From contig JANZYW010000001.1 in the NCBI GenBank assembly GCA_026413325.1, positions 1,616 through 65,615 on the forward strand: a stretch of 64,000 nt of DNA, written 5' to 3'. The notes under the pieces are model-generated. The model was not told where the DNA came from and did no database searches. It saw only the letters and a list, made by a program, of their open reading frames with translations. The translations under genes and the position numbers were made by a program. The stretch is from Bacteroidia bacterium. Lineage in GTDB: Bacteria; Bacteroidota; Bacteroidia; SpSt-205. Shown here one piece after another: positions 12,275 through 63,531 of this stretch (its first letter is position 1; every line of letters begins with the position of its first letter).

Positions 12275-12325
12275 GCAGCAAATATAACTCCTACCGACGA
12301 ACACTTCCCTCTCCTTTCAGATACA

Positions 12326-14255: not shown

Positions 14256-14328
14256 CTAAAGTTACCTACCTTTAAGGGGGCGAGAGCCGTCAGGGCCTTG
14301 CCGCAGGTGCGACTCCTGCGCTCGCCAC

Positions 14329-15348
14329 ATGACGACACTGACCGTGGAGGAGCTTGTAGGGCTACTAAGCCGAAAGGAGCTGCTTCAGGTCGCTCGAGAA
14401 GGTCGAGAAGTAGGGCTCTTCCGTCCTACTTACCCTCTCAATCACTATGACACAGCAGGGCTTCGTCGTATCCTCCGTCGACATATAGAGCGCCTGGCAC
14501 GGCTGCCCTCCGTGCAAGAACTGCTTCAACGCTACAGTCGCAGGGGGAAAGAACGCCTCTCTCCTTTCCCCGCTCCACAGCTCCCCCCTCTTTCAGTCTT
14601 GATAGAACAACTCTTCCCTGAAGTATGGGGAATGGAAGTAGAAAAGGAAAACCTCGTAGAATGGATATATCTCCCCCTGGCAGCTCCGAAAGAAGCGAGC
14701 AGATATGGGGTTTCCTCCTCGCCCTCGCTCCTCGTAGAAGGAGCCCCTGGTAACGGGAAAAGCTATCTCATCCGACGATTTGCTCGGGCCAGTGGATTTG
14801 CCCATCGGATCATTCACACCCCCGCTTTAGCGAACAAATGGTACGGAGAAACGGAAAGGCGCCTGAGAGCAGTGATCCAACATGCGCTTAGAAAATCTCC
14901 TTCCCTCCTCATATTTGAGGAAATAGACGCTATTTTCCCCGACCGAGAAAAAAATTTGGAATGGCTAAATGGTCCTACTCTCCAGTTTCTCCTTCTCTTG
15001 GATGAGATCAAAGAAAGAGGCGGAGTAGCCGTGATCGGTATCACCAATCGAGCGCAACGACTGGAGCCAGCCCTAATACGACACGGGCGCTTTGACCGCA
15101 GACTATATATTCCGCCTCCCGACTATACCGAACGGCTTCTTTTCCTCACTCACATGTCTCGTCCTCTTCCCTGTTCTCCTGACATCCGATGGGAGGAGTG
15201 GGCTGAAGTTACAGCAGGCTACACCCGAGCCGATCTCACCCATCTACTCCAGGAGGCAGGTTTTCGAGCTTTCCTACGCCACTGTCGAGATGGGACCCCT
15301 CAGCTCATCACCGAAGAGGACCTCCACTGTGCCCTTAGATCCGGGTAG
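14329..15348 (+). CDS. Stand-alone single-domain AAA+ ATPase (classic AAA clade) with a unique N-terminal region of about 130 aa.
   Basis: Walker A EGAPGNGKSY. Walker B LLIFEEIDAIF. Second region of homology and arginine finger ITNRAQRLEPALIRHGRFDRRLYIPPPD. Confidence 0.8.
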   Translation: MTTLTVEELVGLLSRKELLQVAREGREVGLFRPTYPLNHYDTAGLRRILRRHIERLARLPSVQELLQRYSRRGKERLSPFPAPQLPPLSVLIEQLFPEVWGMEVEKENLVEWIYLPLAAPKEASRYGVSSSPSLLVEGAPGNGKSYLIRRFARASGFAHRIIHTPALANKWYGETERRLRAVIQHALRKSPSLLIFEEIDAIFPDREKNLEWLNGPTLQFLLLLDEIKERGGVAVIGITNRAQRLEPALIRHGRFDRRLYIPPPDYTERLLFLTHMSRPLPCSPDIRWEEWAEVTAGYTRADLTHLLQEAGFRAFLRHCRDGTPQLITEEDLHCALRSG

Positions 15349-16360
15349 GTAAATTAGGGAACTTTATGGTGTAAGGCTCGATACTGGGGGGTTTTTGATT
15401 TTGGGCGTTCATCTGCATGATAGCTCGCACGGCATCCACTGAGAGACACACTTGTCCTCCCTCCCCTACCTTTTCAAACCAGAGCCTTTCTAAAAGGATC
15501 TCAGTGCGCAGATAACGCCATTCACCCTCGTCTGTATAGAGATATTTGACCTTAGGTATGCGAGAAAGAGCGTTCTTATACGCATCTAACTCATAATTCA
15601 AGCAACATTTAAGCTTTCCACACAGGCCTGTTATTTTAGTACTATTGAGCGAGAGTCCCTGGTATCGGGCTGCTTCGGTACCGACGGTAGGGAGGGACAC
15701 CATCCAACTGGAACAGCATAGCTCCCTTCCACAAGGTCCGATCCCGCCCAATCGAGCCGTATCCTCTCGAGCGCTGATTTGACGCATTTCCGGTCTGACT
15801 CGGAAGGTATCAGCGATGCAGCGTATCAACTCTCGGAAATCTACCCTCCCCTCTGCCGTAAAGTAGCAAATTAGGGTGCGGCTGTCAGCGGTAAGCTCTA
15901 CATCTGTGACCTTCATCTGATGGGCAGACCCCAAACCCAGCTCTTCTACCAAGCGCCGGACCCCTCGAAGCAGCTCAGGCTCTCGCAGACGCACTCCAGA
16001 AAGGGCCGCCAAATCTGCCTCTGAAGCCCGTCGAATCACCTTTTGTGCGGGTTCTACCGAGAGTTTCAGGGATTTCAAACGCGCATATGCCAAGTGCCCC
16101 GTAAGTTGAACGCACCCCACATCATACCCACGACCAATCTGGGGGGCACTTTCAGCACTGCGACGAACGATCTCTGGTACGACCACCCACTCCCCTGTGG
16201 CAAGTAAGGGATCCAACTCGGTCCAGAACAGCTCCCGTCGATTTCCCTTGAACCGAACCTCTACTAAGGGCGGCGCCTCACGTGAAGGTCGAACCCCCTC
16301 CAACCAGTCTCCCACAAAAAGACTGTTGTGACACCCACTACACCCGCCTTGACACCCCAT
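15335..16360 (-). CDS. PSP1 C-terminal domain protein (RicT/YaaT-like).
   Basis: Conserved Cys motifs GIGPCGRELCCSSW and GLCGKLKCCLNYE lie in a PSP1-type core. The ORF is open up to 16489 and overlaps the gltX 3' end; the ATG at 16360 was chosen as the more plausible start. The stop overlaps the stop of the convergent AAA gene by 14 nt. Confidence 0.65.
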   Translation of the reverse strand: MGCQGGCSGCHNSLFVGDWLEGVRPSREAPPLVEVRFKGNRRELFWTELDPLLATGEWVVVPEIVRRSAESAPQIGRGYDVGCVQLTGHLAYARLKSLKLSVEPAQKVIRRASEADLAALSGVRLREPELLRGVRRLVEELGLGSAHQMKVTDVELTADSRTLICYFTAEGRVDFRELIRCIADTFRVRPEMRQISAREDTARLGGIGPCGRELCCSSWMVSLPTVGTEAARYQGLSLNSTKITGLCGKLKCCLNYELDAYKNALSRIPKVKYLYTDEGEWRYLRTEILLERLWFEKVGEGGQVCLSVDAVRAIMQMNAQNQKPPSIEPYTIKFPNLPTRI

Positions 16361-17861
16361 AGACACTAATGAAGGCTTCCAGTCGGCGTTCAACCTCTTC
16401 TTTCCCCAAAACAGCCCAGATTGCATAGAGAGAAGGGCCCGCTTCCTGACCAGTCGAGACCAACCGAATCGTAGGAAGCAGCTTCCCAACCCCCATCCCC
16501 TGTGACTTTGCCCATTCTTTCAGCCACCCCTCCAGTGCAGCGGACTCCCAGACAGACAGCTGTCGAATCTCCGCTAAGAAATCGGGGAGTTTTTCAATCA
16601 ATATAGGATTAAGCTTGGCTTCAAGCGCCTCTGGCAGGGGCAGAGAAGGACGCATGTAAAAAAAGCGAACTGCCTCCAGGATTTCGGGCAGAAGGGTCGC
16701 TCTTTCCCTTGCAAGATCGATGAGCTGGCTCAGTTTATCGTCCGATATCGAGGGAAGCGCTCGCTCTTCCCACAGCTGTCGAACCAGCGGCAGTAATCGC
16801 TCTACTGGGAGGCGGCGCAGATGCTGTTGATTGATCCAGCGAGCCTTCTCATAGTCGAACCGAGCACCTGCTTTGCTGACGCGATCTAATGAAAATCTGG
16901 CTACCAGTTCTTCGAGAGTAAAAACCTCTTGTTCTCCCCCAGGGTGCCAACCAAGGAGGGCTAAATAATTGATAACCCCTTCTGGTAAGAAGCCTCGCTC
17001 TCGATACCCGAGAGAGACTTCTCCAGTGTGGGGGTCTTGCCACCGAAGAGGGAAAACGGGAAAACCTAACCTGTCCCCATCTCTTTTGCTAAGTTTCCCT
17101 CCTCCATCCGGTCGCAAAAGCAGAGGAAGATGGGCGAACTTCGGCATTTCCCAACCGAACGCCTCATACAAAAGTACGTGAAGGGGGGTCGAAGAAAGCC
17201 ACTCCTCCCCACGGATCACATGTGTAATCCCCATAAGGTGATCGTCCACCACATTCGCTAAGTGATAGGTGGGCATCCCATCGCTCTTCAGGAGAACCTT
17301 ATCATCTAACTCACGAGTGTGAAAGCTTACCCACCCCCGTATCTCATCAAAAAATCGCACCTCTCGCCCCCTCGGCATTAGAAAGCGAACGACATACGGC
17401 TCCGAACGCAGACGAGAACGCACTTCATCCGGAGGCAGGGTAAGGCTATTTTTCATGTAAGAGCGAGTGACTGCATTGTACTGGGGGGCTACCATACCAG
17501 CAGCCTCGAAGCGACTGCGCATCTCTTCTAACTCTTGTTCTGTATCGAAGGCATAGTAAGCTGCGCCTCGCTCGACCAAAAGGTGCGCATAGTCCGCATA
17601 GAGCTCCTTTCGCTCACTCTGGCGATAAGGCGCATGCGGACCTCCTACGTGGGGCCCCTCATCAAACTCAATCCCACACCAGGAAAGAGAGTCTATAATA
17701 TATGCCTCCGCACCAGGAACATACCGACTCTGATCCGTGTCTTCTATCCGCAAGATAAACTGGCCTCCCTTTTGTCTCGCAAGAAGAAAGTTATACAATG
17801 CAGTTCGCACTCCCCCAATATGCAAAGGCCCAGTGGGGCTGGGCGCAAATCGGACCCTCAT
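16338..17861 (-). CDS. gltX: Glutamyl-tRNA synthetase.
   Basis: Class I HIGH motif (PSPTGPLHIGGVRTALYN) and KMSKS-type KLSKRDG. Length 507 aa. Confidence 0.9.
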   Translation of the reverse strand: MRVRFAPSPTGPLHIGGVRTALYNFLLARQKGGQFILRIEDTDQSRYVPGAEAYIIDSLSWCGIEFDEGPHVGGPHAPYRQSERKELYADYAHLLVERGAAYYAFDTEQELEEMRSRFEAAGMVAPQYNAVTRSYMKNSLTLPPDEVRSRLRSEPYVVRFLMPRGREVRFFDEIRGWVSFHTRELDDKVLLKSDGMPTYHLANVVDDHLMGITHVIRGEEWLSSTPLHVLLYEAFGWEMPKFAHLPLLLRPDGGGKLSKRDGDRLGFPVFPLRWQDPHTGEVSLGYRERGFLPEGVINYLALLGWHPGGEQEVFTLEELVARFSLDRVSKAGARFDYEKARWINQQHLRRLPVERLLPLVRQLWEERALPSISDDKLSQLIDLARERATLLPEILEAVRFFYMRPSLPLPEALEAKLNPILIEKLPDFLAEIRQLSVWESAALEGWLKEWAKSQGMGVGKLLPTIRLVSTGQEAGPSLYAIWAVLGKEEVERRLEAFISVYGVSRRV

Positions 17862-18605: not shown

Positions 18606-18685
18606 GTAACAAAGGTAGATAAATCATCGCTTGTATAGAAAAGCACCTTCCCAACTCATTTTCTATGATATACTACCTTTGCCGT

Positions 18686-21361: not shown

Positions 21362-21408
21362 AGATACAGAACTCCAGATGGGGACGAGAAAAAATAATGC
21401 ACAGATCC

Positions 21409-21948
21409 TCAGAGCGTATCCCCTGCGATCACACGCCTCCAGCGCCGCTGACTCTGATCATAGAAGGTGTAAGGATCAGGGAACGCCACGTAGTGCTCAT
21501 TATAGTTACGCAAGTCTTCTCCTTTTCTCCACAAACGATAAAGCCCCTCAACCACCGCCCGCATCGTATCAGAAGGAAATCGATACGTCCAGAAAAGCTC
21601 CTCATAATGTCGCCACCCCGTATCACTGGGAATCACCCGTCCTACCACTGCCTCCCGCCGATTTGGAAAGCGACTTCGAGTGGGCCGACTCAGTCCGAAA
21701 TAGAGGGTTTCTCCCTGCTCGATCCAAAGCTCCCAGCGATAGGCCTCAACCGAGTCGCGAGCTGCATGAGCCCCCGCAACAAAGGGGTATAACTTCGCAC
21801 GCACAGAATCGCGCCGCTCAGCGGGAATCTTTTCAGGCGAGGAGAAAGAACCCTCAGAGCGGCAAGAAACCGCCCACCACAAAAGAAACAGGGGCAGGCA
21901 TATCCACCTGCCCCTGTTTTTCAAAAGATCCTGTTTAGTATTGAGCAT
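21409..21948 (-). CDS. Hypothetical lipoprotein.
   Basis: Lipobox-like LLWWAVSC after a basic N-terminus. Trp/Arg-rich, no recognised domain. Confidence 0.45.
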   Translation of the reverse strand: MLNTKQDLLKNRGRWICLPLFLLWWAVSCRSEGSFSSPEKIPAERRDSVRAKLYPFVAGAHAARDSVEAYRWELWIEQGETLYFGLSRPTRSRFPNRREAVVGRVIPSDTGWRHYEELFWTYRFPSDTMRAVVEGLYRLWRKGEDLRNYNEHYVAFPDPYTFYDQSQRRWRRVIAGDTL

Positions 21949-23341
21949 TTTGCGGGTCGAAATGAGCCCACCCATCCGTCCAATCACTGTTGGGATCGAG
22001 AGCTCCTCGATAGGGTACTTGCTGAAAGTAGGTATCCAGCTTAGGATTGCTAAAATCAGCTCCAGTAGCCCAAGGAGACCCAGAGGGGAGGCGAAGCGTA
22101 GGATTCGCTTGGCCTTGGATGAATACCCAGAAAGGCATCGGAGTAGTGGAAGAGAAACCTCCCAGCAAAGAGAGATTGGTATCCACCACAGTCACATTGC
22201 TAGTACCTACTGTCTCCCATATAGCCCGAGCAGTGCTGTCAGTCGCCCCCTGCCCTCCTCTATATCGCCCAGAAGTATTTCCAGAGTCAACCAGCAGAAC
22301 ATTATGAGAGACAAATGCTCGACCTGCACTGTAGTGCTCAGCAGTACTTCCACTGCCCCCATCTATGCGCAAACCAGTGGGGAAACCACCGATGATAGAA
22401 TTGAAGAGCGAGACAGCTGCATTTCGACGGAAGTGCAGCGTATTTTGATAGTTTGCACTTCGGCCCGCCCCCCGACGATGGATAGGACCCAAGACCGTCA
22501 CATTCGAAAAGACAGGTGCAGTATAAGGCTGATTGGCAGACCCAGAAGGATCATTATCCATCTCAAAACCATTCGAGCCAGATTGATCCGCTCCGAAAGG
22601 ATCTCGAATAGCTAAGGCAAACTGCACTCGACCAGACCACCCAAAATCTCCATCAAAATCATCATCCCATGTTCCCTGCGAGACGAGATATTTCCCATCC
22701 ACTGTCCCACCAAACCATTCAAATCCGTCATCACCCCCGAAGGAAACCTGGACATGGTCGATTTGCGTGCCTCTGCCAACCCCACCCATCGTCAAGCTGT
22801 TTACCTCATTATTGGGCGTCAAAGCCACCCCAGCAAACTCGATCCGTACATAGCGAAATACCCCAGAATTGTCATTCGGATCGGTTCCTCCATATTGAAT
22901 GGGCGGAGTTACCCCCTCGATAGTGAGATTAGCACCGTTTATGGGGGCTCTGCCCAAAATAATAATCCCTCCCCAATCTCCTCGATCCCGCTCACCAGGG
23001 GCAAACTTCGATGTGAAAACGATGGGCTTATCCGGTGTACCTTCAGCAAAGATACGCCCACCTCGATCGATTATGAGGGTACCCTTGGTGGCACGATCTC
23101 CGAAAATAATCGTACCTGCCGGGATTCGTAGAACTCCCCCTTGGCGTACGATGTACTGCCCTTTCAGCAAGTACTTTTTGGTGGCATCTAACGTCAGCTC
23201 ATTTGTAAGCTCTCCCTCCAAAGTAACGAGAGAAGCTCCCCCCTGGGGAGGTTGAGGAGTAGGTTCATCTTCTTTCTTCTTTTTGCAGGCAATAAAGGCT
23301 CCCAAGGAGAGCGCAACTACCCAGAAACGTGCGGTCTTCAT
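21935..23341 (-). CDS. Hypothetical lipoprotein of 468 aa. It is rich in Gly, Asp, Thr and Asn, with short Gly/Asp-rich sub-repeats that suggest a beta-helix-like fold.
   Basis: Signal peptide plus lipobox (LSLGAFIAC followed by KKKKEDEPTPQPPQGG linker). Short repeated motifs include GGDDGFEWFGG, DDDFDGDFGW, NGFEMDNDPSG and GIIILGRA. Confidence 0.5.
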   Translation of the reverse strand: MKTARFWVVALSLGAFIACKKKKEDEPTPQPPQGGASLVTLEGELTNELTLDATKKYLLKGQYIVRQGGVLRIPAGTIIFGDRATKGTLIIDRGGRIFAEGTPDKPIVFTSKFAPGERDRGDWGGIIILGRAPINGANLTIEGVTPPIQYGGTDPNDNSGVFRYVRIEFAGVALTPNNEVNSLTMGGVGRGTQIDHVQVSFGGDDGFEWFGGTVDGKYLVSQGTWDDDFDGDFGWSGRVQFALAIRDPFGADQSGSNGFEMDNDPSGSANQPYTAPVFSNVTVLGPIHRRGAGRSANYQNTLHFRRNAAVSLFNSIIGGFPTGLRIDGGSGSTAEHYSAGRAFVSHNVLLVDSGNTSGRYRGGQGATDSTARAIWETVGTSNVTVVDTNLSLLGGFSSTTPMPFWVFIQGQANPTLRLPSGSPWATGADFSNPKLDTYFQQVPYRGALDPNSDWTDGWAHFDPQNAQY

Positions 23342-25489: not shown

Positions 25490-26474
25490 TTAAGAACACT
25501 TTAGCGGTATCTTGTATAACCCTCTCAAGGGGTGTATAGGAAAAAGGGTATACCCTAGTAATACGTGTGCCATCATACAGGAAATCTGCGCTTGAGGTAC
25601 GCGTCGTCTCTCGAGTAGCAGCCTCTGGTATTCCAAGGTACTTCCCCAAGAGTTCCATAACCCAGCCAGCAGAAACAGCCAGCTGCTTGGGTAAAGGGAA
25701 CAGAGGGGGACGCTTGCCCAAAGCACGGGCTATTTCTGTGAATAGGCGACGATACTTCCAGTTCTCCGCCACAAGGATGTAACGCTGACCCCATCCTACA
25801 GGATAGTGCTCCAAGCCAGTAAAAATAGCCCTTACTACATCTTCTACTCCCACAAAACCATTTGTACCCACGGGGTAAGCCATCAAGCCTTTCCACACCA
25901 TTCGAAAAAAGACAGGAGATCCTTTGGTCCAACTGACGTAAGGCCCCAGGATGATGCCAGGATTCAAAACCAGCGCAGAAAGCCCCTCTTCTTTACCCCT
26001 CCAGACTTCTTTCTCAGCCAAATATTTGGTATACCCATAGTACGTATTGTACGGGGAGTCTTCCCATATAGCCTCTTCTGTAATAGGGGCTTTCGGATCA
26101 GATGGACGTCCTAAAGCTGCTATTGAACTTACATAAATCAAACGAGAGACTCCCGCCTCTAAACTCGCATTCACCAAGTGTCGAGTCCCCTCTACATTGG
26201 TTTTATACATCCATTGGCGACTCCGGGAGGAGAAACTGATGGTAGCCGCCAGATGAACCACTGTCTCTACCCCCTGACAAGCTTCTATGAGGGCGACAGG
26301 GTCCTGAAGATTTCCTTCTACAAGCTCTACATGGCCCAAGTAAGGTTTGAGTACGGGATGCTGGGGGTCTCGTACGAACAATCGCAGTGGGGCGGGCTTA
26401 CCCCTCCGCTCCCATTCCGCCAGAAACGTATAGCCTACAAACCCCGTAGCCCCAGTTATTAACCACATGGCCAA
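25461..26474 (-). CDS. NAD-dependent epimerase/dehydratase (extended SDR) family protein.
   Basis: N-terminal Rossmann ITGATGFVGYTF. YxxxK-type catalytic region (YGYTKYLAEK). Confidence 0.75.
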   Translation of the reverse strand: MAMWLITGATGFVGYTFLAEWERRGKPAPLRLFVRDPQHPVLKPYLGHVELVEGNLQDPVALIEACQGVETVVHLAATISFSSRSRQWMYKTNVEGTRHLVNASLEAGVSRLIYVSSIAALGRPSDPKAPITEEAIWEDSPYNTYYGYTKYLAEKEVWRGKEEGLSALVLNPGIILGPYVSWTKGSPVFFRMVWKGLMAYPVGTNGFVGVEDVVRAIFTGLEHYPVGWGQRYILVAENWKYRRLFTEIARALGKRPPLFPLPKQLAVSAGWVMELLGKYLGIPEAATRETTRTSSADFLYDGTRITRVYPFSYTPLERVIQDTAKVFLSAYASSSKR

Positions 26475-26729
26475 AAGTACGTAAAAGGCTCATTTGAGGC
26501 CGTCTCACCAAAAGATTTCCTTCAGAAGGGTTCCCTTCCGAGCATAAGAGGATGCGAGAAAAAGGGGTATGTACTGCGGAAGAAGACCGAAAGAAATCCA
26601 CCCGCCCTGGTCAGAGAGAATGGGCTGCTCTTGAAGAGGAACGCTAAGGAAGCGGGCATCGTTCTACTCAAGAATGCAGTTTCTGCCCACCATTAGTACC
26701 ATTGCTGGCACGTATCGCACGCAGTGGTA

Positions 26730-29192: not shown

Positions 29193-29886
29193 CTGTGGGA
29201 ACCAGCTTAGTCGGACGCAAAACTTCGTCTACCAACCCATACGCCTGGGCTTCATCCGCCCGCATCCAGTAATCTCGGTCCGAATCTTTCCATATTTTTT
29301 CATAGGACTGTCCAGTGTGAAATGCCAAAATCTCATAGAGCTCTCGCTTTATCTTCTGTATTTCTGCATGAACGATCTCAATATCAGAGGCCTGTCCTTG
29401 CACTCCCCCAAGCGGCTGATGTATCATCACTCGAGCATGAGGGAGGGCAGCCCGCTTGCCTTTCGATCCTGCCGCCAAGAGTACAGCAGCCATAGAAGCA
29501 GCCATACCCGTACAAATAGTATTTACATCAGGCCGCACATACTGCATCACATCATAGATACTCAAGCCATCATAGACAGACCCTCCCGGAGAGTTTATGT
29601 AGATAAAGATATCGCGTTTGGGATCGGCTGATTCCAAAAAAAGCAATTGCGCATTGATGATGTTGGCTATCTGCCCATCGATAGGATACCCCATGAAGAT
29701 TATCCTATCCATCATCAATCGAGAAAAAACATCCATCACAGCGATATTGAGCTGGCGCTCCTCGATAATATTCGGGGTAAGCCCATAGATGCCTTGACGT
29801 AACCGAGCTTCATACTGATCCAATCGAAGGCTTTCTATATGAAGGTGACGGGTCGCATATCGGCGAAACTCTTCTCCCAGATTCAT
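29176..29886 (-). CDS. clpP: ATP-dependent Clp protease proteolytic subunit ClpP.
   Basis: Active-site region [18 protein letters not shown]…[12 protein letters not shown]…[10 protein letters not shown] (Ser-His-Asp triad context). Start set at MNLGEEF; the ORF is open to 29958. Confidence 0.9.
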
Positions 29887-31217: not shown

Positions 31218-31218
31218 G

Positions 31219-31301
31219 TGCGGATGGAGGGACTCGAACCCTCAACCCCTCACGGGACCAGATCCTAAGTCTGGCGCGTCTGCCAATTCCGCCACATCCG
31301 C
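31219..31301 (-). tRNA. tRNA-Leu (anticodon UAG) with a long variable arm.
   Basis: Cloverleaf folded by hand. Acceptor GCGGATG/CATCCGC, anticodon loop CUUAGGA, variable arm CCCGTGAGGGGTTGAG, T-loop GGTTCGAGTCC. No encoded CCA. Confidence 0.85.
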
Positions 31302-31304
31302 ATA

Positions 31305-31377
31305 TGGCACCGGCGGGACTCGAACCCACATCTGGAGTTTAGGAAACTCCCATTCTATCCTGTTGAACTACGGCGCC
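31305..31377 (-). tRNA. tRNA-Arg (anticodon CCU).
   Basis: Acceptor GGCGCCG/CGGTGCC, anticodon stem-loop GGAGT-TTCCTAA-ACTCC, T-arm GTGGG-TTCGAGT-CCCGC. 73 nt. No encoded CCA. Confidence 0.8.
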
Positions 31378-31401
31378 AAATATACTTACCTTCGCAAAGG
31401 T

Positions 31402-32361
31402 ATGGAAAACCTTGCCGTCGTAGACTTGCGGCACTTTCGAGAGGGAAATCCATCCCTCCAAGAGAGATTTGTAGAAACTCTTGGAAAGGCTTTCAATGAA
31501 ATCGGTTTTGTAATCGTCGAAAATCACTCAGTTACCCCCTCTCTCCAAAAGGCTTTATACGAAAAAGTAGAGGCTTTTTTTGCCTTACCCCCAGAAATCA
31601 AACAGCGCTATATCGTTCCCGGGACTGCAGGGCAACGAGGCTACACGCCTCCTAACCAGGAACATGCCAAAAACCGGACTGTACCTGACCTGAAAGAGTT
31701 CTTTCACGTGGGGCCTGAAATCACCGACTCGAAAGACCCCCTTTATTATCGTCTTCCTAAAAATGTATGGCCTGAAGAAGTGCCCGGATTTCGAGAAACA
31801 GTGCTCCTCGCCTACGAAAAGTTCTTGGAAACGGGGCGAGAACTTCTAAGAGCCATCGCACTGTACTTGGATTTAGAGGAAACCTACTTCGAAGCTCGTA
31901 TCCAGAACGCTCCCAGCCTTCTACGCCTTTTGCACTATTACCCCTTGTCTCCCACCACTCCGATTCCAGAAGGAGCCACGCGTGCAGCCGAGCATGAGGA
32001 TATCAATCTCATCACCCTTCTCATCGGCGCCAGTGCAGAGGGCCTCGAAGTGCTTACACGAGAGGGGAAGTGGCTCTCTCCCATCGTAGCCCCGAATCAG
32101 ATGGTCATAAATGTGGGAGATATGCTACAACGTCTCACGAACAATCGCCTGCGCAGCACTACCCATCGAGTGGTGCTACCCCCTCCTGAAAAGCGCCACC
32201 TACCCCGTTTTTCAGTACCTTTCTTCCTCCATCCTCGCCCTGAAGTAAGTTTGGCTTGTCTACCCTCCTGCATCGATGACCATCACCCTAAAGCCTACCC
32301 CGATACAACCGCTGAAGCATACTTAGAGGAGCGACTCGTAGAAATGGGCCTGCGGAAATAA
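31402..32361 (+). CDS. 2-oxoglutarate/Fe(II)-dependent oxygenase (isopenicillin-N-synthase-like family).
   Basis: HxD…H iron-binding context (AAEHEDINLITLL … STTHRVV). Overall similarity to the 2OG-Fe(II) oxygenase superfamily. The ORF is open from 31363, where it would overlap the tRNA; the start was taken at MENLAV. Confidence 0.65.
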   Translation: MENLAVVDLRHFREGNPSLQERFVETLGKAFNEIGFVIVENHSVTPSLQKALYEKVEAFFALPPEIKQRYIVPGTAGQRGYTPPNQEHAKNRTVPDLKEFFHVGPEITDSKDPLYYRLPKNVWPEEVPGFRETVLLAYEKFLETGRELLRAIALYLDLEETYFEARIQNAPSLLRLLHYYPLSPTTPIPEGATRAAEHEDINLITLLIGASAEGLEVLTREGKWLSPIVAPNQMVINVGDMLQRLTNNRLRSTTHRVVLPPPEKRHLPRFSVPFFLHPRPEVSLACLPSCIDDHHPKAYPDTTAEAYLEERLVEMGLRK

Positions 32362-33064
32362 CGCAGGGACACCTAACCAGTAGCCTGCAAAAATTCTTCT
32401 TTAAGCCTTTCGATTGCCTTTCAAGAGGTAAGAAACATTATCTGATGATAGCTTCACTTGTCTAAAAAATGAGTCGCAGAAACCCCGTCCCCTCTTCCTC
32501 CCAGACATATAACAACCGCCTCCTATCGAGAGCCATCCCTACGAACCTTCCCTTGCTTCAAGCGTCCAACGAGGGAGATAACGTCTCAAGAGGCCCATAC
32601 CTCTAACACCGAAGTTTCCTCTGGCCCCATCTCTACCTCCCCATCCATGATCGTGAGGACGTACTCCTCGTCGCCTTCAAGGAGTGTCCAGGACAGGCTC
32701 TGAGTGAATGCGTACCAAGGGCCGTGAAGGTGTAGCCCCCTCCCCAAAGCCTTAAGGGGACAAGGCAGAATCTACTGCCCAGCTCCCCCAAAGAGCCCAT
32801 CCGGCCGAGGATTCGAGTAGCGGTTGTGCGTCTGGGCTTTGTTTCCTCGAAAATTATGGCGGGGAAGGAAAGGGGGAGCCTTTTCCTCCGTCCATATGCC
32901 ACTGCGAGCCAAAACAAGCCATTGAGACAGAGTGCTTCCGGTCGCATTCGGCTACAGGGGTACGTTATACTGAAACTCTGATGGAGCTTTCAGAGTAAAT
33001 ATATCCGAACCTTGGGAAGGCTTCAGCTCCCTTTTGAGCCCTCCGCAGAGGATACCTTTGACCC

Positions 33065-34321
33065 ATGCCTATCTGGCGACCCTCGACCAGTCATCACGAC
33101 AAAACCCCTCTTCCCATCAGGGTTACTCGTGCACAAGGTTCCTACCTCTACACAGCCGATGGCCGTGCGATCTGGGATGGTACGTGTGCCTGGTGGGTAA
33201 CTGTCCATGGCCACTGCCACCCCCACATCGCAGCAGCGATAGCTCATCAGGCTCACACCTTAGACCAGGTGCTCTTCGCTGATTTTACCCATCCCCTGGC
33301 CGAACATCTTATTCAAAGGCTATCTACCCTCACAGGACTTCCATGGGGATTCTTTTCAGATGACGGCTCTACTGCCGTAGAGGTAGCTCTCAAGATAGCG
33401 ATCCAGTACTTTCGAAATCGGGGAGAACGTCGCACCCGCCTTTTAGCCCTGGAGGGGGCCTACCATGGAGATACCTTCGGTGCTATGAGCGTATCCGCTC
33501 GAGGTCTATTCACTTTACCTTTCGAGGATTGGCTCTTCGAAGTGGAATGGCTTCCCTTTCCCTCCCCCGAGAATGAAGCTGCCCTGCGCCAGTCGTTGGA
33601 AAAGCTTCAAGAAAGACGGGATATCATCGCCTTCATTGGAGAACCTCTTCTTCAAGGCACTGCTGGCATGCGTACCTACGCTCCTTCCTATTGGGACCTT
33701 ATAGCCACCACCGTGAGACAGACAGGAGGCCTCGTGATCGCAGACGAGGTCTTCACTGGCTTCGGCAGAACAGGTACTCTCTTTGCCACTCAGCAGTGTC
33801 AGCAAAAACCCGACATCCTCTGCCTCTCCAAAGGCATAACAGGTGGATTTATGCCTTTGGGAGTCACTCTGGTGAGTGAGCAGGTATTCCACGGTTTCTA
33901 TACCTCCGATCCCCTCAAGGCTTTTTACCATGGCCATTCCTACACAGGTAATCCTCTCGCCTGTGCCGCTGCCATAGCCAACTTAGAGCTGTGGGAGGAA
34001 TCTCATACCTGGACTCAACTCCAGACCCTGTGTGATACCCAAAAACAGCTGGCAGAAAAATGGCGAGAAATGTTCCCCGACCTCCCCGTACGTACTTTGG
34101 GGCTGGTATTAGCGGTAGAACTCCCCGGAGCTGAGAGAGGGTATCTTGCTCCTCATAGACACACTTTCAAGGCATATGCCTTAGAACGCAATATCTTTTT
34201 GCGCCCACTGGGTGCTGTAGTATATATTCTTCCCGCTCTGTCGAGCCAGCCACATGAGTTAGAGCGAGCATTTTACCTCATCCAAGATTATTTAGAAACA
34301 GTAGGGGTGAGCTCAGCATAA
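33065..34321 (+). CDS. bioA: Adenosylmethionine-8-amino-7-oxononanoate aminotransferase (class III PLP aminotransferase).
   Basis: BioA-type WW…HGH motif (CAWWVTVHGHCHP). PLP-lysine region LCLSKGITGGFMPLG. Confidence 0.8.
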   Translation: MPIWRPSTSHHDKTPLPIRVTRAQGSYLYTADGRAIWDGTCAWWVTVHGHCHPHIAAAIAHQAHTLDQVLFADFTHPLAEHLIQRLSTLTGLPWGFFSDDGSTAVEVALKIAIQYFRNRGERRTRLLALEGAYHGDTFGAMSVSARGLFTLPFEDWLFEVEWLPFPSPENEAALRQSLEKLQERRDIIAFIGEPLLQGTAGMRTYAPSYWDLIATTVRQTGGLVIADEVFTGFGRTGTLFATQQCQQKPDILCLSKGITGGFMPLGVTLVSEQVFHGFYTSDPLKAFYHGHSYTGNPLACAAAIANLELWEESHTWTQLQTLCDTQKQLAEKWREMFPDLPVRTLGLVLAVELPGAERGYLAPHRHTFKAYALERNIFLRPLGAVVYILPALSSQPHELERAFYLIQDYLETVGVSSA

Positions 34322-37149: not shown

Positions 37150-37225
37150 GGCACAAAGCTAAACAGATTAGAGCGGCCACCTCGTTTGCAACTTCTACTG
37201 AGAAAAATCGTTTTACTTTGATGAT

Positions 37226-42703: not shown

Positions 42704-43894
42704 CGCTACCCAGTACATCCCGTACAACCGATGTCGAGCCAAAGTACCCCAATAAGGCATGGCCATCGCCGCTACACCCACGATATAGAGCCCCACCGCC
42801 ACCAAAACAAGGGAAACAAAGGACCACCCCTCTCGACGAAACGACCATCGGCTCCAGTAGCCGAATAAACCCACTCCGGTCCACACTTCGACAGCATACA
42901 GAAGGAGAAGCCCCTTATCTATTTGCCAAGGAAGAGGCCCAGCAAAACCATACAAAAGCGCTTCTATCCATCCAAGCCAACCCTTATCAGGGGCTGAAAA
43001 AAGCTTCAGTTGAAAATAACTACTCGTTTGCAGCTCAGGGTGCATACCCACATCCAATGCTTCTAACCGATACTGATACGCCCACGGACCTAAAAAGAAC
43101 TGCAGCGCAAGCAGTCCAGCCAGACTGGCAACCCCTGCTACCCACACAGAAGCCCATCTGCAAACCAAACCTACCCCTATTCCTACCCCCAAAGCTTCTT
43201 CCCGTAAAACTAACAGCAGCAACCCAGCCCCTATTCCGCCCCATACATCCCGCCTCTCTCGAAAAGACGCCACCCAGCCAGCTAAATATAAAGTCGCTGG
43301 TAAAGCAAACGTATCCCGGATGGCACCTGAAAGCCACAAAAGAGCACTAGGCCAGAGAAACCAAAAAATCCAAAAGATGGAAGGGAGCGAATAAATCTTT
43401 TCCCAACGACGATAGGCTGCGTAACTCAGCAATCCACCCAAAACACCACAAAGCCCCTGTAAGCCATAATAACTTCCCCCTGCAGCGATATAGAGAGGCA
43501 CTAAAAGGCGATAGAAATGATAATTACTCGGCTCACTCCATTCATAGTCATAGCCATAGAACTGCATATCTCTGAAAAATACCTGCCACCCCAACGCCTC
43601 CCATTGAGGAGAAAATTCTCGAAAAAGGAGCGCAAGCCCAGTCAAAGGGTCCTCCCACATATAAGAGACCAGCCGATGTGCAGTAAGATAGGCTTTCAAG
43701 GTATCTCCATGACAATAGTACCTTGCATATAACCATCCAAAAGCCCAGGCCGCTCCTATCTTCGCCACTAATACCCCGTAAACCCAAATCGGTTTTCTGT
43801 GCCATTCGAGCCAATAAGCAACAAACCCCAACCAGACACCCACCAATCCAAATCCCCACAGCTCGCGCTCGGGGTTTAGCACTAGCATGGCCAA
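42638..43894 (-). CDS. Polytopic integral membrane protein of unknown function, possibly glycosyltransferase-like (GT39/DUF2029 type).
   Basis: More than 10 hydrophobic segments, rich in Trp and Tyr. The family assignment is a guess. Confidence 0.35.
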   Translation of the reverse strand: MAMLVLNPERELWGFGLVGVWLGFVAYWLEWHRKPIWVYGVLVAKIGAAWAFGWLYARYYCHGDTLKAYLTAHRLVSYMWEDPLTGLALLFREFSPQWEALGWQVFFRDMQFYGYDYEWSEPSNYHFYRLLVPLYIAAGGSYYGLQGLCGVLGGLLSYAAYRRWEKIYSLPSIFWIFWFLWPSALLWLSGAIRDTFALPATLYLAGWVASFRERRDVWGGIGAGLLLLVLREEALGVGIGVGLVCRWASVWVAGVASLAGLLALQFFLGPWAYQYRLEALDVGMHPELQTSSYFQLKLFSAPDKGWLGWIEALLYGFAGPLPWQIDKGLLLLYAVEVWTGVGLFGYWSRWSFRREGWSFVSLVLVAVGLYIVGVAAMAMPYWGTLARHRLYGMYWVALGVGIAVQKAVQRTQYALSEA

Positions 43895-43917
43895 AGTTAT
43901 CTATCTTTTATGCGTTT

Positions 43918-50212: not shown

Positions 50213-50281
50213 GCAGCAAAGGTAAAAGAAAAAGCCCCTCTACTCAGGAGTAGAGGGGCACACCTCAGGAGTTACCTACGC

Positions 50282-55847: not shown

Positions 55848-55877
55848 GGTGCAAATATAGGACTTCTTACTAAATGT

Positions 55878-62868: not shown

Positions 62869-63522
62869 ATGGCTATAGTCTTGTTAAGTGGAGGGCAAGA
62901 CTCTACCACTGCTCTACTATGGGCGCTCGAGAATCTGCCCGGCCCTTTGCACTCATTGACTTTTTTATATGGGCAGCGACACGCTACGGAGATAGCACAA
63001 GCCCAGCGGATCGCCGCCAAGCTGAGGGTTCCTCACAGCTGCCTCGACCTGGGAAGATTGTGGGAAGCCCTCTCGGTAGGGACGGCTCTCACGGCTGAAG
63101 AGCCTATCACTACAGCGGCCACAGGTCTCCCAACGACTTTCGTCCCGGGGAGAAATCTCGTCTTCCTTACCGCTGCGGCAGCGTGGGGTTACCCACGAGG
63201 CGAACGAGAGCTGATTATCGGAGTCAGTCAAGTAGATTATAGTGGCTACCCTGATTGTAGAGAGGCCTTCCTTCAATCGGCACAAGTGACGCTAAGCTAC
63301 GCATTAGACCAGCCGATACAGATTCACGCTCCTTTCCTTCAGTGGGATAAATCCGAAATATGGCGCTATGCGGACAGACTGGGTTATCGAGAATTTATCG
63401 CAGAAGAAACGCATACTTGTTACAGAGGGGACCGTAGTCATCGATATCCTTGGGGGTATGGCTGCGGCACCTGTCCAGCTTGCCAACTGCGCCGAATGGG
63501 ATACGAGAAAGCTTTTGGCTAA
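62869..63522 (+). CDS. queC: 7-cyano-7-deazaguanine synthase.
   Basis: PP-loop VLLSGGQDSTT. C-terminal Zn-binding CxxC…CxxC (CYRGDRS…CGTCPACQLR). Confidence 0.88.
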   Translation: MAIVLLSGGQDSTTALLWALENLPGPLHSLTFLYGQRHATEIAQAQRIAAKLRVPHSCLDLGRLWEALSVGTALTAEEPITTAATGLPTTFVPGRNLVFLTAAAAWGYPRGERELIIGVSQVDYSGYPDCREAFLQSAQVTLSYALDQPIQIHAPFLQWDKSEIWRYADRLGYREFIAEETHTCYRGDRSHRYPWGYGCGTCPACQLRRMGYEKAFG

Positions 63523-63531
63523 CTTTGCGCT

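What the first reader, a model, noticed from the sequence alone, without database searches (positions are those of the whole stretch)
32362..33064. Gene-free, GC-rich ~700-bp gap between the 2OG-oxygenase gene and bioA: possible structured ncRNA or long leader
Almost every other intergenic spacer in this window is under 100 bp and many genes overlap, so a 700-bp gap stands out. The only ORF of 60 aa or more here (32633-32947, minus) is Arg/Ser/Leu-rich antisense-looking junk. The region does not look like spacer DNA: it has G-runs paired with C-runs (ggggaaggaaagggggagcc…ttttcctcc; ccccctccccaaagccttaagggga) and several short inverted repeats. It lies directly 5' of bioA on the same strand, so it could be a leader or regulatory RNA for biotin synthesis, an independent sRNA, or a decayed gene remnant. 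I looked for tmRNA (GGUUCGA-type T-loop plus a tag ORF), RNase P RNA (GGAAAGUCCGG, GGUAAGAGCGCACC) and SRP RNA motifs and found none.
Basis: seen in the sequence. Interest (0 to 1): 0.55.

Follow-up and report, generated by a model that had tools for sequence, protein, structure and literature searches.

The report
Orphan insert splitting oxygenase–bioA pair
The 703-base gene-free stretch is real. It is DNA found only in this lineage, wedged between two genes that touch in related bacteria, and it looks like a decaying gene remnant that carries bioA's own promoter, not a structured RNA or a bioA leader.

Summary
The gap (32362-33064) is real and is the longest non-coding stretch in the window.

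- **Insertion:** in four related Bacteroidia contigs the oxygenase stop and the bioA start are 1-5 nt apart, with the same protein ends. The 703 bp is therefore an insertion specific to this lineage.
- **No relatives:** it matches nothing in Rfam, Pfam or NCBIfam (six frames), two billion-scale protein libraries, plasmids, phages, one metagenome pattern scan, or 20 related loci.
- **No unusual fold:** its folding energy is no better than the window's background.
- **Not a leader:** a Bacteroidetes sigma-A -7 box (TACCTTTG, 33053-33060) ends 4 nt before the bioA ATG. At least 13 other genes in the window have the same geometry. bioA is therefore predicted to be leaderless, with its transcription start at 33065.
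- **Coding-like core:** the core (about 32560-32950) is 57% GC, has period-3 signal, and holds two coding-like islands in one minus-strand frame, which is broken by stop codons. The flanks look like spacer DNA.

Best reading: a relic of a minus-strand orphan gene and its old spacers, where the right-hand spacer now drives bioA. This is ordinary and of low interest. A live small gene or sRNA is not excluded.

The parts
32362..33064 (.). The whole 703-bp lineage-specific insert between the oxygenase stop codon and the bioA start codon.
   Evidence: In L003, L005, L006 and L010 the homologous stop and ATG are 1-5 nt apart, with the same protein ends (...LGLRK(A)* / MPIWRP...). The insert has no similarity to any relative, to the rest of the window or to any library searched.
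33053..33060 (+). Sigma-A -7 box TACCTTTG (consensus TAnnTTTG), ending 4 nt before the bioA ATG. The predicted transcription start is 33065, which would make the bioA mRNA leaderless.
   Evidence: It is the only exact match in the gap. The box is enriched in the window (46 matches against 26.6 expected). At least 13 other long ORFs have a box 3-7 nt before their start codon. The box occupies -12 to -5 in Flavobacterium psychrophilum (PMC9723704). Relatives whose bioA is not behind the oxygenase have a box, or a one-mismatch box, 4-5 nt before the start.
33033..33036 (+). TTTG, a possible -33 element, 16 nt upstream of the -7 box.
   Evidence: Read directly from the sequence. The -33 TTTG consensus is described in PMC7366714. 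The 16-nt spacing is shorter than I recall as usual, so this assignment is tentative.
32589..32747 (-). Coding-like island 1. It covers ORF 32586-32747 (53 aa, TTG start, TGA stop) and has strong GNN periodicity.
   Evidence: Markov posterior of 0.85-0.89 for this minus frame. Codon log-odds up to 0.32. No credible homologue among 1.84 billion representatives. The AlphaFold2 model has pLDDT 57.
32775..32931 (-). Coding-like island 2, in the same minus frame as island 1 and separated from it by an in-frame TAG at 32772-32774. It covers ORF 32772-32912 (46 aa).
   Evidence: Markov posterior of 0.85 at 32812-32931. Codon log-odds of 0.13-0.19. In-frame stops are listed.
32855..32896 (.). On the minus strand it is followed by AUUUUC.
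   Evidence: Minimum-free-energy structure. The terminator scan does not call it. The surrounding window's z-score is ordinary.
32965..32998 (.). Imperfect palindrome TTATACTGAAA-N12-TTTCAGAGTAA, which contains the perfect inverted repeat ACTCTGA-N8-TCAGAGT. It lies 55-90 nt upstream of the bioA -7 box and could be a protein-binding site or a chance hairpin.
   Evidence: No BirA-type operator is present in the gap.
32362..32560 (.). Left flank of the insert. It looks like spacer DNA and includes a weak 5-bp hairpin (GCAGG...CCTGC, 32363-32388) just after the oxygenase stop codon.
   Evidence: The first 200 nt of the gap (32362-32561) are 46% GC. Lowest period-3 power in the region. Non-coding posterior of about 1.0. 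The hairpin appears in the structure. No terminator is called.
31402..32361 (+). 2OG/Fe(II) oxygenase gene (isopenicillin N synthase family), the left neighbour of the gap.
   Evidence: P0001 = MCX7605662.1, 100% identical, 319 aa.
33065..34321 (+). bioA (adenosylmethionine-8-amino-7-oxononanoate transaminase), the right neighbour of the gap.
   Evidence: P0130 is 100% identical over 418 aa, with the same start codon.

Best explanation
The gap is a 703-bp piece of DNA specific to this lineage. It was inserted exactly into the 1-5-nt junction of an ancestral, tightly coupled oxygenase-bioA gene pair.

I read its layout as the relic of a small minus-strand gene of unknown origin, together with that gene's former spacers:
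- **Left flank (32362 to about 32560):** AT-richer and spacer-like.
- **Core (about 32560-32950):** 57% GC and still showing codon periodicity in one minus-strand frame. That frame is now broken by TAG and TGA stop codons and has no recognisable start or promoter.
- **Right flank (about 32950-33064):** AT-richer and spacer-like.

The only part with a predictable present-day function is the right flank. It carries a Bacteroidetes sigma-A promoter (TTTG at 33033, TACCTTTG at 33053-33060) that should start transcription on the A of the bioA ATG. bioA would then be made as a leaderless mRNA from its own promoter, not co-transcribed with the oxygenase as in relatives.

What is shown: the insertion, the lack of homology, the lack of unusual structure, the promoter motif and its geometry, and the coding-like statistics. 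What is inferred: the transcription start, the gene-relic origin, and that the rest of the insert is functionless.
For: 1. Insertion. L003, L005, L006 and L010 have the oxygenase stop and the bioA ATG 1-5 nt apart, with conserved protein ends and no -7 box in between. The upstream ClpX-ClpP-trigger factor-oxygenase context is conserved.
2. Breakpoint. The 3' side of the oxygenase gene is a recurrent synteny breakpoint. Downstream genes in relatives are bioA, an AAA ATPase, TauE, a 155-aa gene or an enoyl-CoA hydratase/3-hydroxyacyl-CoA dehydrogenase (ECH/3HCDH) gene.
3. Promoter. TACCTTTG ends 4 nt before the ATG. The same geometry recurs at 13 or more genes in the window. The motif is enriched, with 0 of 100 shuffles reaching 46 matches. 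The box lies at -12 to -5 in the literature. L004 bioA has TAGCTTTG followed by 4 nt and the ATG.
4. Relic.
- The core is in the top 1.3% of windows for GC, while its flanks are 46% and 50% GC, within the 29-50% range of most genuine spacers in the window.
- Period-3 power in the core (1.1-1.5) equals that of bioA itself, while the flanks give 0.2-0.6.
- Codon log-odds for the minus frame over 32589-32951 is 0.124, which only 0.5% of non-coding frames reach.
- There are two posterior islands of 0.85 or more in the same frame, against a 7% per-window rate in shuffles.
- That frame carries seven in-frame stops within the gap.
5. Not an RNA. There are no Rfam matches, and fold z-scores lie within the background.
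Against: - No parent gene was found. Pfam and NCBIfam six-frame scans gave nothing. A six-frame composite against 5.8 billion proteins gave nothing at E<=10. The exhaustive HMMER search returned only spurious hits to tandem-repeat proteins. Neighbour genes of relatives leave no trace in the gap.
- The coding-like signal is modest, with a rough p of 0.02-0.05 after allowing for frames and windows. G-rich periodic runs could mimic it.
- Seven nonsense codons with no apparent frameshift is an odd decay pattern.
- No relative closer than 87% oxygenase identity or 72% BioA identity exists in the collections. The history of the insert therefore cannot be traced, and conservation cannot be tested.
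- The transcription start is predicted, not measured.
- The -33 spacing of 16 nt is short.
Confidence: 0.5

Rival explanations
1. One or two live small orphan genes lie on the minus strand: ORF 32586-32747 (53 aa) and/or ORF 32772-32912 (46 aa), or a single protein of about 108 aa if the TAG at 32772 is a sequencing error or is read through.
For: Both ORFs coincide with the two coding-like islands and share one frame. Island 1 shows clear GNN periodicity. AlphaFold2 predicts an all-beta arrangement for the 61-aa stretch.
Against: - No homologue appears in 5.8 billion or 1.84 billion proteins.
- Neither ORF has a -7 box in front of it, and the only start codons are TTG.
- The six-frame search against a library that holds this contig's NCBI proteins found no protein from the gap, so none seems to be annotated there.
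- The model has pLDDT 57 and pTM 0.36, which is uninformative.
- Shuffled sequence gives coding-like windows at a 7% rate.
Confidence: 0.13
2. An independent non-coding RNA of a family not yet described is transcribed from the gap. One candidate is a minus-strand sRNA of about 145 nt. It would run from a -7-like box TATATTTA (33003-32996) to the hairpin at 32896-32855 followed by AUUUUC. The GC-rich core would give it thermostability.
For: The core GC content is in the top 1.3% of windows, and the tRNA region is similarly GC-rich. A hairpin of about 20 bp followed by U4 lies on the minus strand. A one-mismatch -7 box lies upstream on the same strand. Windows 32851-33000 give z = -2.85 (+) and -2.48 (-).
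Against: - No Rfam match even at E<=10.
- Those z-scores are reached by 2-4% of all windows in mostly coding DNA.
- With 200 shuffles the region gives z = -1.74.
- Sites with at most one mismatch to the box occur at the chance rate: 6 seen, and about 6.5 expected by my calculation.
- The terminator scan finds none, although this genome does use strong canonical terminators.
- The element is absent from all relatives.
- Period-3 signal points to coding ancestry, not RNA.
Confidence: 0.12
3. The gap is a long 5' leader of bioA, a riboswitch-like or attenuator element that senses biotin status, or it is read through from the oxygenase gene.
For: The gap lies directly 5' of bioA on the same strand. 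No intrinsic terminator is predicted after the oxygenase gene, so read-through transcripts may exist. Window 33001-33150, which spans the bioA start, gives z = -3.3.
Against: - The exact -7 box ending 4 nt before the ATG predicts a leaderless bioA mRNA, as at 13 or more other genes in the window.
- Relatives have no leader: their bioA either abuts the oxygenase gene or has its own box 4-5 nt upstream of the start.
- No structure signal and no Rfam match.
- No BirA-type operator in the gap.
- No biotin riboswitch class is known (my own knowledge).
Confidence: 0.04
4. The gap is the remnant of a mobile element, such as an insertion sequence (IS) fragment, a miniature inverted-repeat element (MITE) or an IS200/IS605-type element. 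In this reading the element landed in the junction and brought an outward-facing promoter.
For: The insertion is precise, falls between two coupled genes, and has a promoter at its edge. The locus is a recombination hot spot.
Against: - No terminal inverted repeats or target-site duplication.
- No second copy in the 64 kb window.
- No transposase-like frame in Pfam or NCBIfam.
- No match in plasmids, phages, viral contigs or Rfam.
Confidence: 0.08

Closest known systems
Bacteroidetes sigma-A (sigma-ABfr) promoters: a -7 box TAnnTTTG with a -33 TTTG (Bacteroides fragilis, B. thetaiotaomicron, Flavobacterium; PMC7366714, PMC9723704)
   Same: There is an exact TAnnTTTG box at 33053-33060 and a TTTG 16 nt upstream. 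The box is enriched in the window and sits in front of many genes.
   Different: Here the box ends 3-7 nt before the start codon at about 14 genes, which implies leaderless mRNAs. In the model species only 3.7-5.5% of mRNAs are leaderless. The transcription start is not measured.
Bacterial pseudogenes and gene relics in intergenic DNA
   Same: The core keeps residual codon periodicity and codon usage in one frame, broken by several stop codons. It is flanked by spacer-like DNA and is absent from relatives.
   Different: No parent family can be named. There is no evident frameshift, and the coding signal is only modest.
Operon splitting by insertion, with promoter gain for the downstream gene
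   Same: The ancestral oxygenase-bioA pair, 1-5 nt apart and with no internal promoter, is now separated. bioA has a promoter inside the inserted DNA.
   Different: The inserted DNA is not a recognisable IS element or gene cassette.
Large structured ncRNAs of bacteria (for example OLE, GOLLD, HEARO, ROOL, raiA) and riboswitch leaders
   Same: Only the size range, the intergenic position and a locally GC-rich core.
   Different: No covariance-model match, no excess folding stability and no conservation. The predicted bioA transcription start leaves no leader.

Membership tests
Any Rfam 15 RNA family | A covariance-model score at or above the family's gathering threshold | tested here: not met
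   At gathering score the whole window yields only two tRNAs, at 31218-31378. The permissive search of 32250-33150 gives three eukaryotic snoRNA/SmY matches at E of 4.4-6.3, far below gathering score.
Structured ncRNA (generic) | Folding free energy clearly below that of shuffled sequence and of the genomic background | tested here: not met
   The whole gap gives z = -1.31 and -0.38. The best 150-nt window gives -2.85, against a background with mean -0.25, sd 1.13 and 2.2% of windows at or below -2.85.
Structured ncRNA (generic) | Conservation with compensatory base changes in homologues | not testable with these tools
   No homologous sequence was found in any collection, so no alignment could be built.
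5' leader or riboswitch of bioA | The element lies between the transcription start and the start codon of the regulated gene | tested here: not met
   The -7 box ends 4 nt before the ATG, so the predicted start is 33065. This is a prediction from motif geometry, not a mapped 5' end.
5' leader or riboswitch of bioA | The element is present upstream of the orthologous gene in related genomes | tested here: not met
   bioA in L001-L006, L010 and L023 has 1-156 nt upstream of it, with no similarity to the gap.
Pseudogene or gene relic | Detectable homology to a functional gene family | tested here: not met
   Pfam, NCBIfam, the 5.8-billion and 1.84-billion protein libraries, and neighbour genes of relatives all gave nothing credible.
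Pseudogene or gene relic | Residual coding statistics in one frame, interrupted by disabling mutations | tested here: inconclusive
   There are two posterior islands of 0.85 or more in one minus frame. Codon log-odds lie above 99.5% of non-coding frames. Period-3 power is at coding level. The frame carries seven in-frame stops within the gap. The shuffle false-positive rate is 7% per window.
Insertion sequence or MITE | Terminal inverted repeats, a target-site duplication and multiple copies | tested here: not met
   Repeat search, junction comparison and self-BLAST of the window found none. Only 64 kb of the genome could be searched.
Bacteroidetes sigma-A promoter | A TAnnTTTG box at about -12 to -5 | tested here: met
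   An exact box lies at 33053-33060. The same box-to-start spacing of 3-7 nt recurs at 13 or more genes.
Bacteroidetes sigma-A promoter | An experimentally mapped transcription start | not testable with these tools
   No transcriptome data are available for this MAG.
Intrinsic terminator after the oxygenase gene | A GC-rich hairpin followed by a U tract | tested here: not met
   None was found in 32000-33400 on either strand. This genome does have canonical terminators elsewhere, for example at 21884-21921.

The most novel reading that the evidence does not exclude
The GC-rich core of the insert is a functional gene unique to this thermophile-associated Bacteroidia lineage. It would be either a thermostable sRNA of an undescribed class or a newly arisen or captured micro-protein gene on the minus strand, placed divergently from a leaderless bioA and possibly sharing its control region (the palindrome at 32965-32998).
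Probability: 0.1. Interest if true: 0.4.

Novelty: new member of a known kind. Interest (0 to 1): 0.15.

Why it matters
It matters little in itself. It is one more case of a lineage-specific insertion or gene relic splitting a gene pair, with the downstream gene now served by a promoter inside the inserted DNA.

Two points are of modest use:
- The position of the sigma-A -7 box can be used in this lineage to separate true leaders from spacers, and to fix start codons.
- This uncultured Bacteroidia lineage seems to use leaderless mRNAs far more often than the model Bacteroidetes do. That would be worth testing across the genome.

Tried and rejected
- **Rfam:** gathering and permissive searches found nothing relevant.
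- **Folding:** the whole gap, sub-regions and sliding windows were folded and calibrated against 640 background windows. The gap is ordinary.
- **Repeats:** no terminal repeats and no second copy in the window.
- **Relatives:** BLASTN and TBLASTX against the related loci held at the time (L001-L009) found nothing. The proteins next to the oxygenase or bioA genes in relatives were also searched against the gap, with no hit. These were a photolyase, an AAA ATPase, PSP1, TauE and the 155-, 216-, 448- and 484-aa genes.
- **Protein family scans:** six-frame Pfam and NCBIfam scans gave zero families.
- **Large protein libraries:** a six-frame composite against 5.8 billion proteins gave nothing at E<=10. 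The stop-free 61-aa frame gave only repeat-driven spurious hits.
- **Other DNA collections:** plasmids and phages in distant mode gave no match. A wobble-tolerant pattern against metagenome contigs gave six chance hits with no extended similarity. Two viral scans gave none.
- **BirA operator:** none in the gap.
- **Recoding:** the in-frame stops are a mix of TAG and TGA, so reassignment of a single stop codon is rejected.
- **Structure prediction:** the AlphaFold2 single-sequence model had low confidence and was not used for fold search.
- **Source contig:** exact-protein look-ups of the window's own genes found no contig on record, so the rest of the MAG could not be examined.

Full report

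The 2OG/Fe(II) oxygenase ORF ends at 32361 and bioA begins at 33065. Both ends agree with NCBI proteins from the same 67,044-bp MAG contig. The oxygenase MCX7605662.1 is 100% identical from its annotated start at 31402, and BioA is 100% identical over all 418 aa.

The gap is 703 bp. The other true spacers in the window are 255 bp or less. A 3-periodic Markov scan of the whole 64 kb puts its longest non-coding runs here. The only ORF of 60 aa or more lying wholly inside the gap is 32633-32947 (-), and its frame has no coding-like codon usage.

The 'GC-rich' description is only partly right. The gap as a whole is 52.5% GC against 51.3% for the window. The 350-nt core 32562-32911 is 57.4% GC, in the top 1.3% of windows, whereas most genuine spacers here are 29-50% GC. 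The quoted G-run and C-run form a hairpin of about 20 bp at 32855-32896.

**2. Is it a structured RNA?**

- Rfam 15 finds only the two tRNAs at 31218-31378 in the whole window. Nothing credible appears in 32250-33150 even at E<=10.
- The whole gap folds with z = -1.31 (+) and -0.38 (-).
- The best 150-nt window inside the gap has z = -2.85.
- I calibrated this against 640 windows spread over the 64 kb. They have mean z of -0.25 and sd 1.13, and 2.2% of them reach -2.85. The gap is therefore no more structured than ordinary, mostly coding DNA from the same contig.

**3. Comparative evidence: an insertion**

Relatives were found through BioA and through the oxygenase. They share 62-72% BioA identity and 72-87% oxygenase identity with the window, and all are uncultured Bacteroidia.

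In L003, L005, L006 and L010 the oxygenase stop and the bioA ATG are 1-5 nt apart. The protein ends match the window's (...LGLRK(A)* and MPIWRP...). The window keeps exactly those ends, with 703 bp in between.

The upstream block ClpX-ClpP-trigger factor-oxygenase is conserved. The gene downstream of the oxygenase varies from one relative to another:
- bioA;
- an AAA ATPase with PSP1 (L008, L009, L017-L019);
- TauE (L022);
- a 155-aa membrane-like gene (L007);
- an ECH/3HCDH gene (L020, L021).

This junction is therefore a recurrent breakpoint. The gap shows no similarity to any of these loci by BLASTN or TBLASTX, nor to the rest of the window. It has no terminal repeats and no target-site duplication.

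**4. The bioA promoter and the leader question**

The Bacteroidetes sigma-A -7 box TAnnTTTG occurs 46 times in the window against 26.6 expected, and 0 of 100 shuffles reach 46. About 14 of these boxes end 3-7 nt, most often 4 nt, before the start codon of a long ORF. Among those ORFs are gcvP, bioA and the genes starting at 12304, 18605, 18665, 26474, 43894, 50212 and 55847.

In Flavobacterium psychrophilum the box occupies -12 to -5 (PMC9723704). The box at 33053-33060 therefore predicts a transcription start at 33065, the A of the bioA ATG. That is a leaderless mRNA. A TTTG lies 16 nt upstream of the box.

Relatives fit this picture. Where bioA abuts the oxygenase there is no box. Where bioA stands apart (L004, L001, L002) there is a box, or a one-mismatch box, 4-5 nt before the start.

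The insert is therefore not a bioA leader. Its 3' edge supplies the bioA promoter. No BirA-type operator is present in the gap. An imperfect palindrome at 32965-32998 lies 55-90 nt upstream of the box, and its role is unknown.

**5. What is the rest of the insert?**

Every homology search failed:
- six-frame Pfam and NCBIfam scans;
- a six-frame composite against 5.8 billion proteins at E<=10;
- plasmids and phages;
- a metagenome pattern scan, which gave only chance hits;
- two viral scans;
- the neighbour proteins from relatives.

The internal statistics are not those of spacer DNA.
- **Period-3 signal:** power in the core is 1.1-1.5, the same as inside bioA. The shuffled median is 0.63, and the flanks give 0.2-0.6.
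- **Codon usage:** one minus-strand frame over 32589-32951 has a codon log-odds of 0.124. Only 0.5% of out-of-frame windows in real genes reach that value, and it lies at the 8th percentile of true reading frames.
- **Markov model:** a GeneMark-style posterior shows two islands of 0.85 or more in that same frame, at 32572-32739 and 32812-32931, with everything else non-coding.
- **Model calibration:** the model calls the right frame in 86% of windows inside genes and a wrong frame in 1.2%. Shuffled gap sequence produces a coding-like window 7% of the time.
- **Significance:** two islands in one frame is a modest signal. I put it at roughly p = 0.02-0.05.
- **Stop codons:** the frame carries seven in-frame stops within the gap, a mix of TAG and TGA, so recoding of one stop codon is excluded.

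The stop-free 61-aa stretch has no credible relative among 1.84 billion representatives. Its nine hits are unrelated tandem-repeat proteins that score through many weak repeats. Its single-sequence AlphaFold2 model is all-beta but of low confidence, with pLDDT 57.

**6. Interpretation**

The layout is an AT-richer flank, then a GC-rich core with a broken minus-strand frame, then an AT-richer flank carrying a promoter. It fits the relic of a small minus-strand gene of unknown origin that entered the oxygenase-bioA junction with its own spacers and has since decayed. The right-hand spacer now drives a leaderless bioA. I give this a probability of about 0.5.

The rivals are:
- a live orphan micro-gene, about 0.13;
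- an undescribed sRNA, about 0.12. The candidate is a minus-strand transcript from about 32991 to 32848. It rests on a one-mismatch box that occurs at the chance rate and on a weak terminator-like hairpin;
- a mobile-element remnant, about 0.08;
- a bioA leader, about 0.04.

**7. Limits**

- No relative closer than 87% oxygenase identity or 72% BioA identity exists in the collections.
- The remaining contigs of the MAG could not be searched.
- There are no transcript data.
- The transcription start, the relic origin and the lack of function are inferences.

**8. Verdict**

The feature is real but ordinary. Interest is low.

Noticed in passing
window-wide; for example 12279-12286(-), 18610-18617(-), 18674-18681(+), 26472-26479(-), 37154-37161(-), 43892-43899(-), 50217-50224(-), 55852-55859(-), 63520-63527(+): About 14 genes have a TAnnTTTG -7 box ending 3-7 nt (mostly 4 nt) before their start codon, which implies leaderless mRNAs. 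In B. thetaiotaomicron and F. psychrophilum only 3.7-5.5% of mRNAs are leaderless. This lineage may use leaderless initiation as a rule. The box also fixes several start codons downstream of the longest-ORF starts.
   Followed up: partly
window 21884-21921: A perfect 15-bp GC-rich hairpin flanked by an A tract and a U tract. It folds with z = -5.8 (+) and -5.1 (-), the strongest structure signal in the window. It lies just past the stop codon of the minus-strand gene 21935-23341, so it is most simply a (bidirectional) intrinsic terminator.
   Followed up: partly
window 21362-21934: This is the second-largest stretch without a clear gene (573 bp). It is covered only by overlapping ORFs on both strands (202 aa on +, 192 aa on -), and their coding status was not checked.
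   Followed up: no
window 31395-31402(-) and 31377-31384(-), next to tRNA-Arg/tRNA-Leu at 31218-31378: Two -7 boxes lie upstream of the tRNA pair. The distal one (TACCTTTG) would start transcription about 12 nt before tRNA-Arg. It overlaps the annotated ATG of the divergent oxygenase gene at 31402. The longest-ORF TTG start at 31363 would overlap the tRNA, so 31402 is the more likely start.
   Followed up: partly
L007, L008, L009, L017-L022 compared with window 32361: The 3' side of the oxygenase gene is a recurrent synteny breakpoint in this clade. At least five different downstream neighbours occur among relatives with 62-87% oxygenase identity. The AAA ATPase-PSP1 pair that follows the oxygenase in the closest relatives lies at 14329-16489 in the window.
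   Followed up: partly
window 29601-29750(+): This 150-nt window folds with z = -4.5, inside the region where the ClpP and trigger-factor genes overlap. It was not examined.
   Followed up: no
window 14256-14328: This 73-bp spacer is 63% GC, unlike the other spacers (29-50% GC). It was not examined.
   Followed up: no
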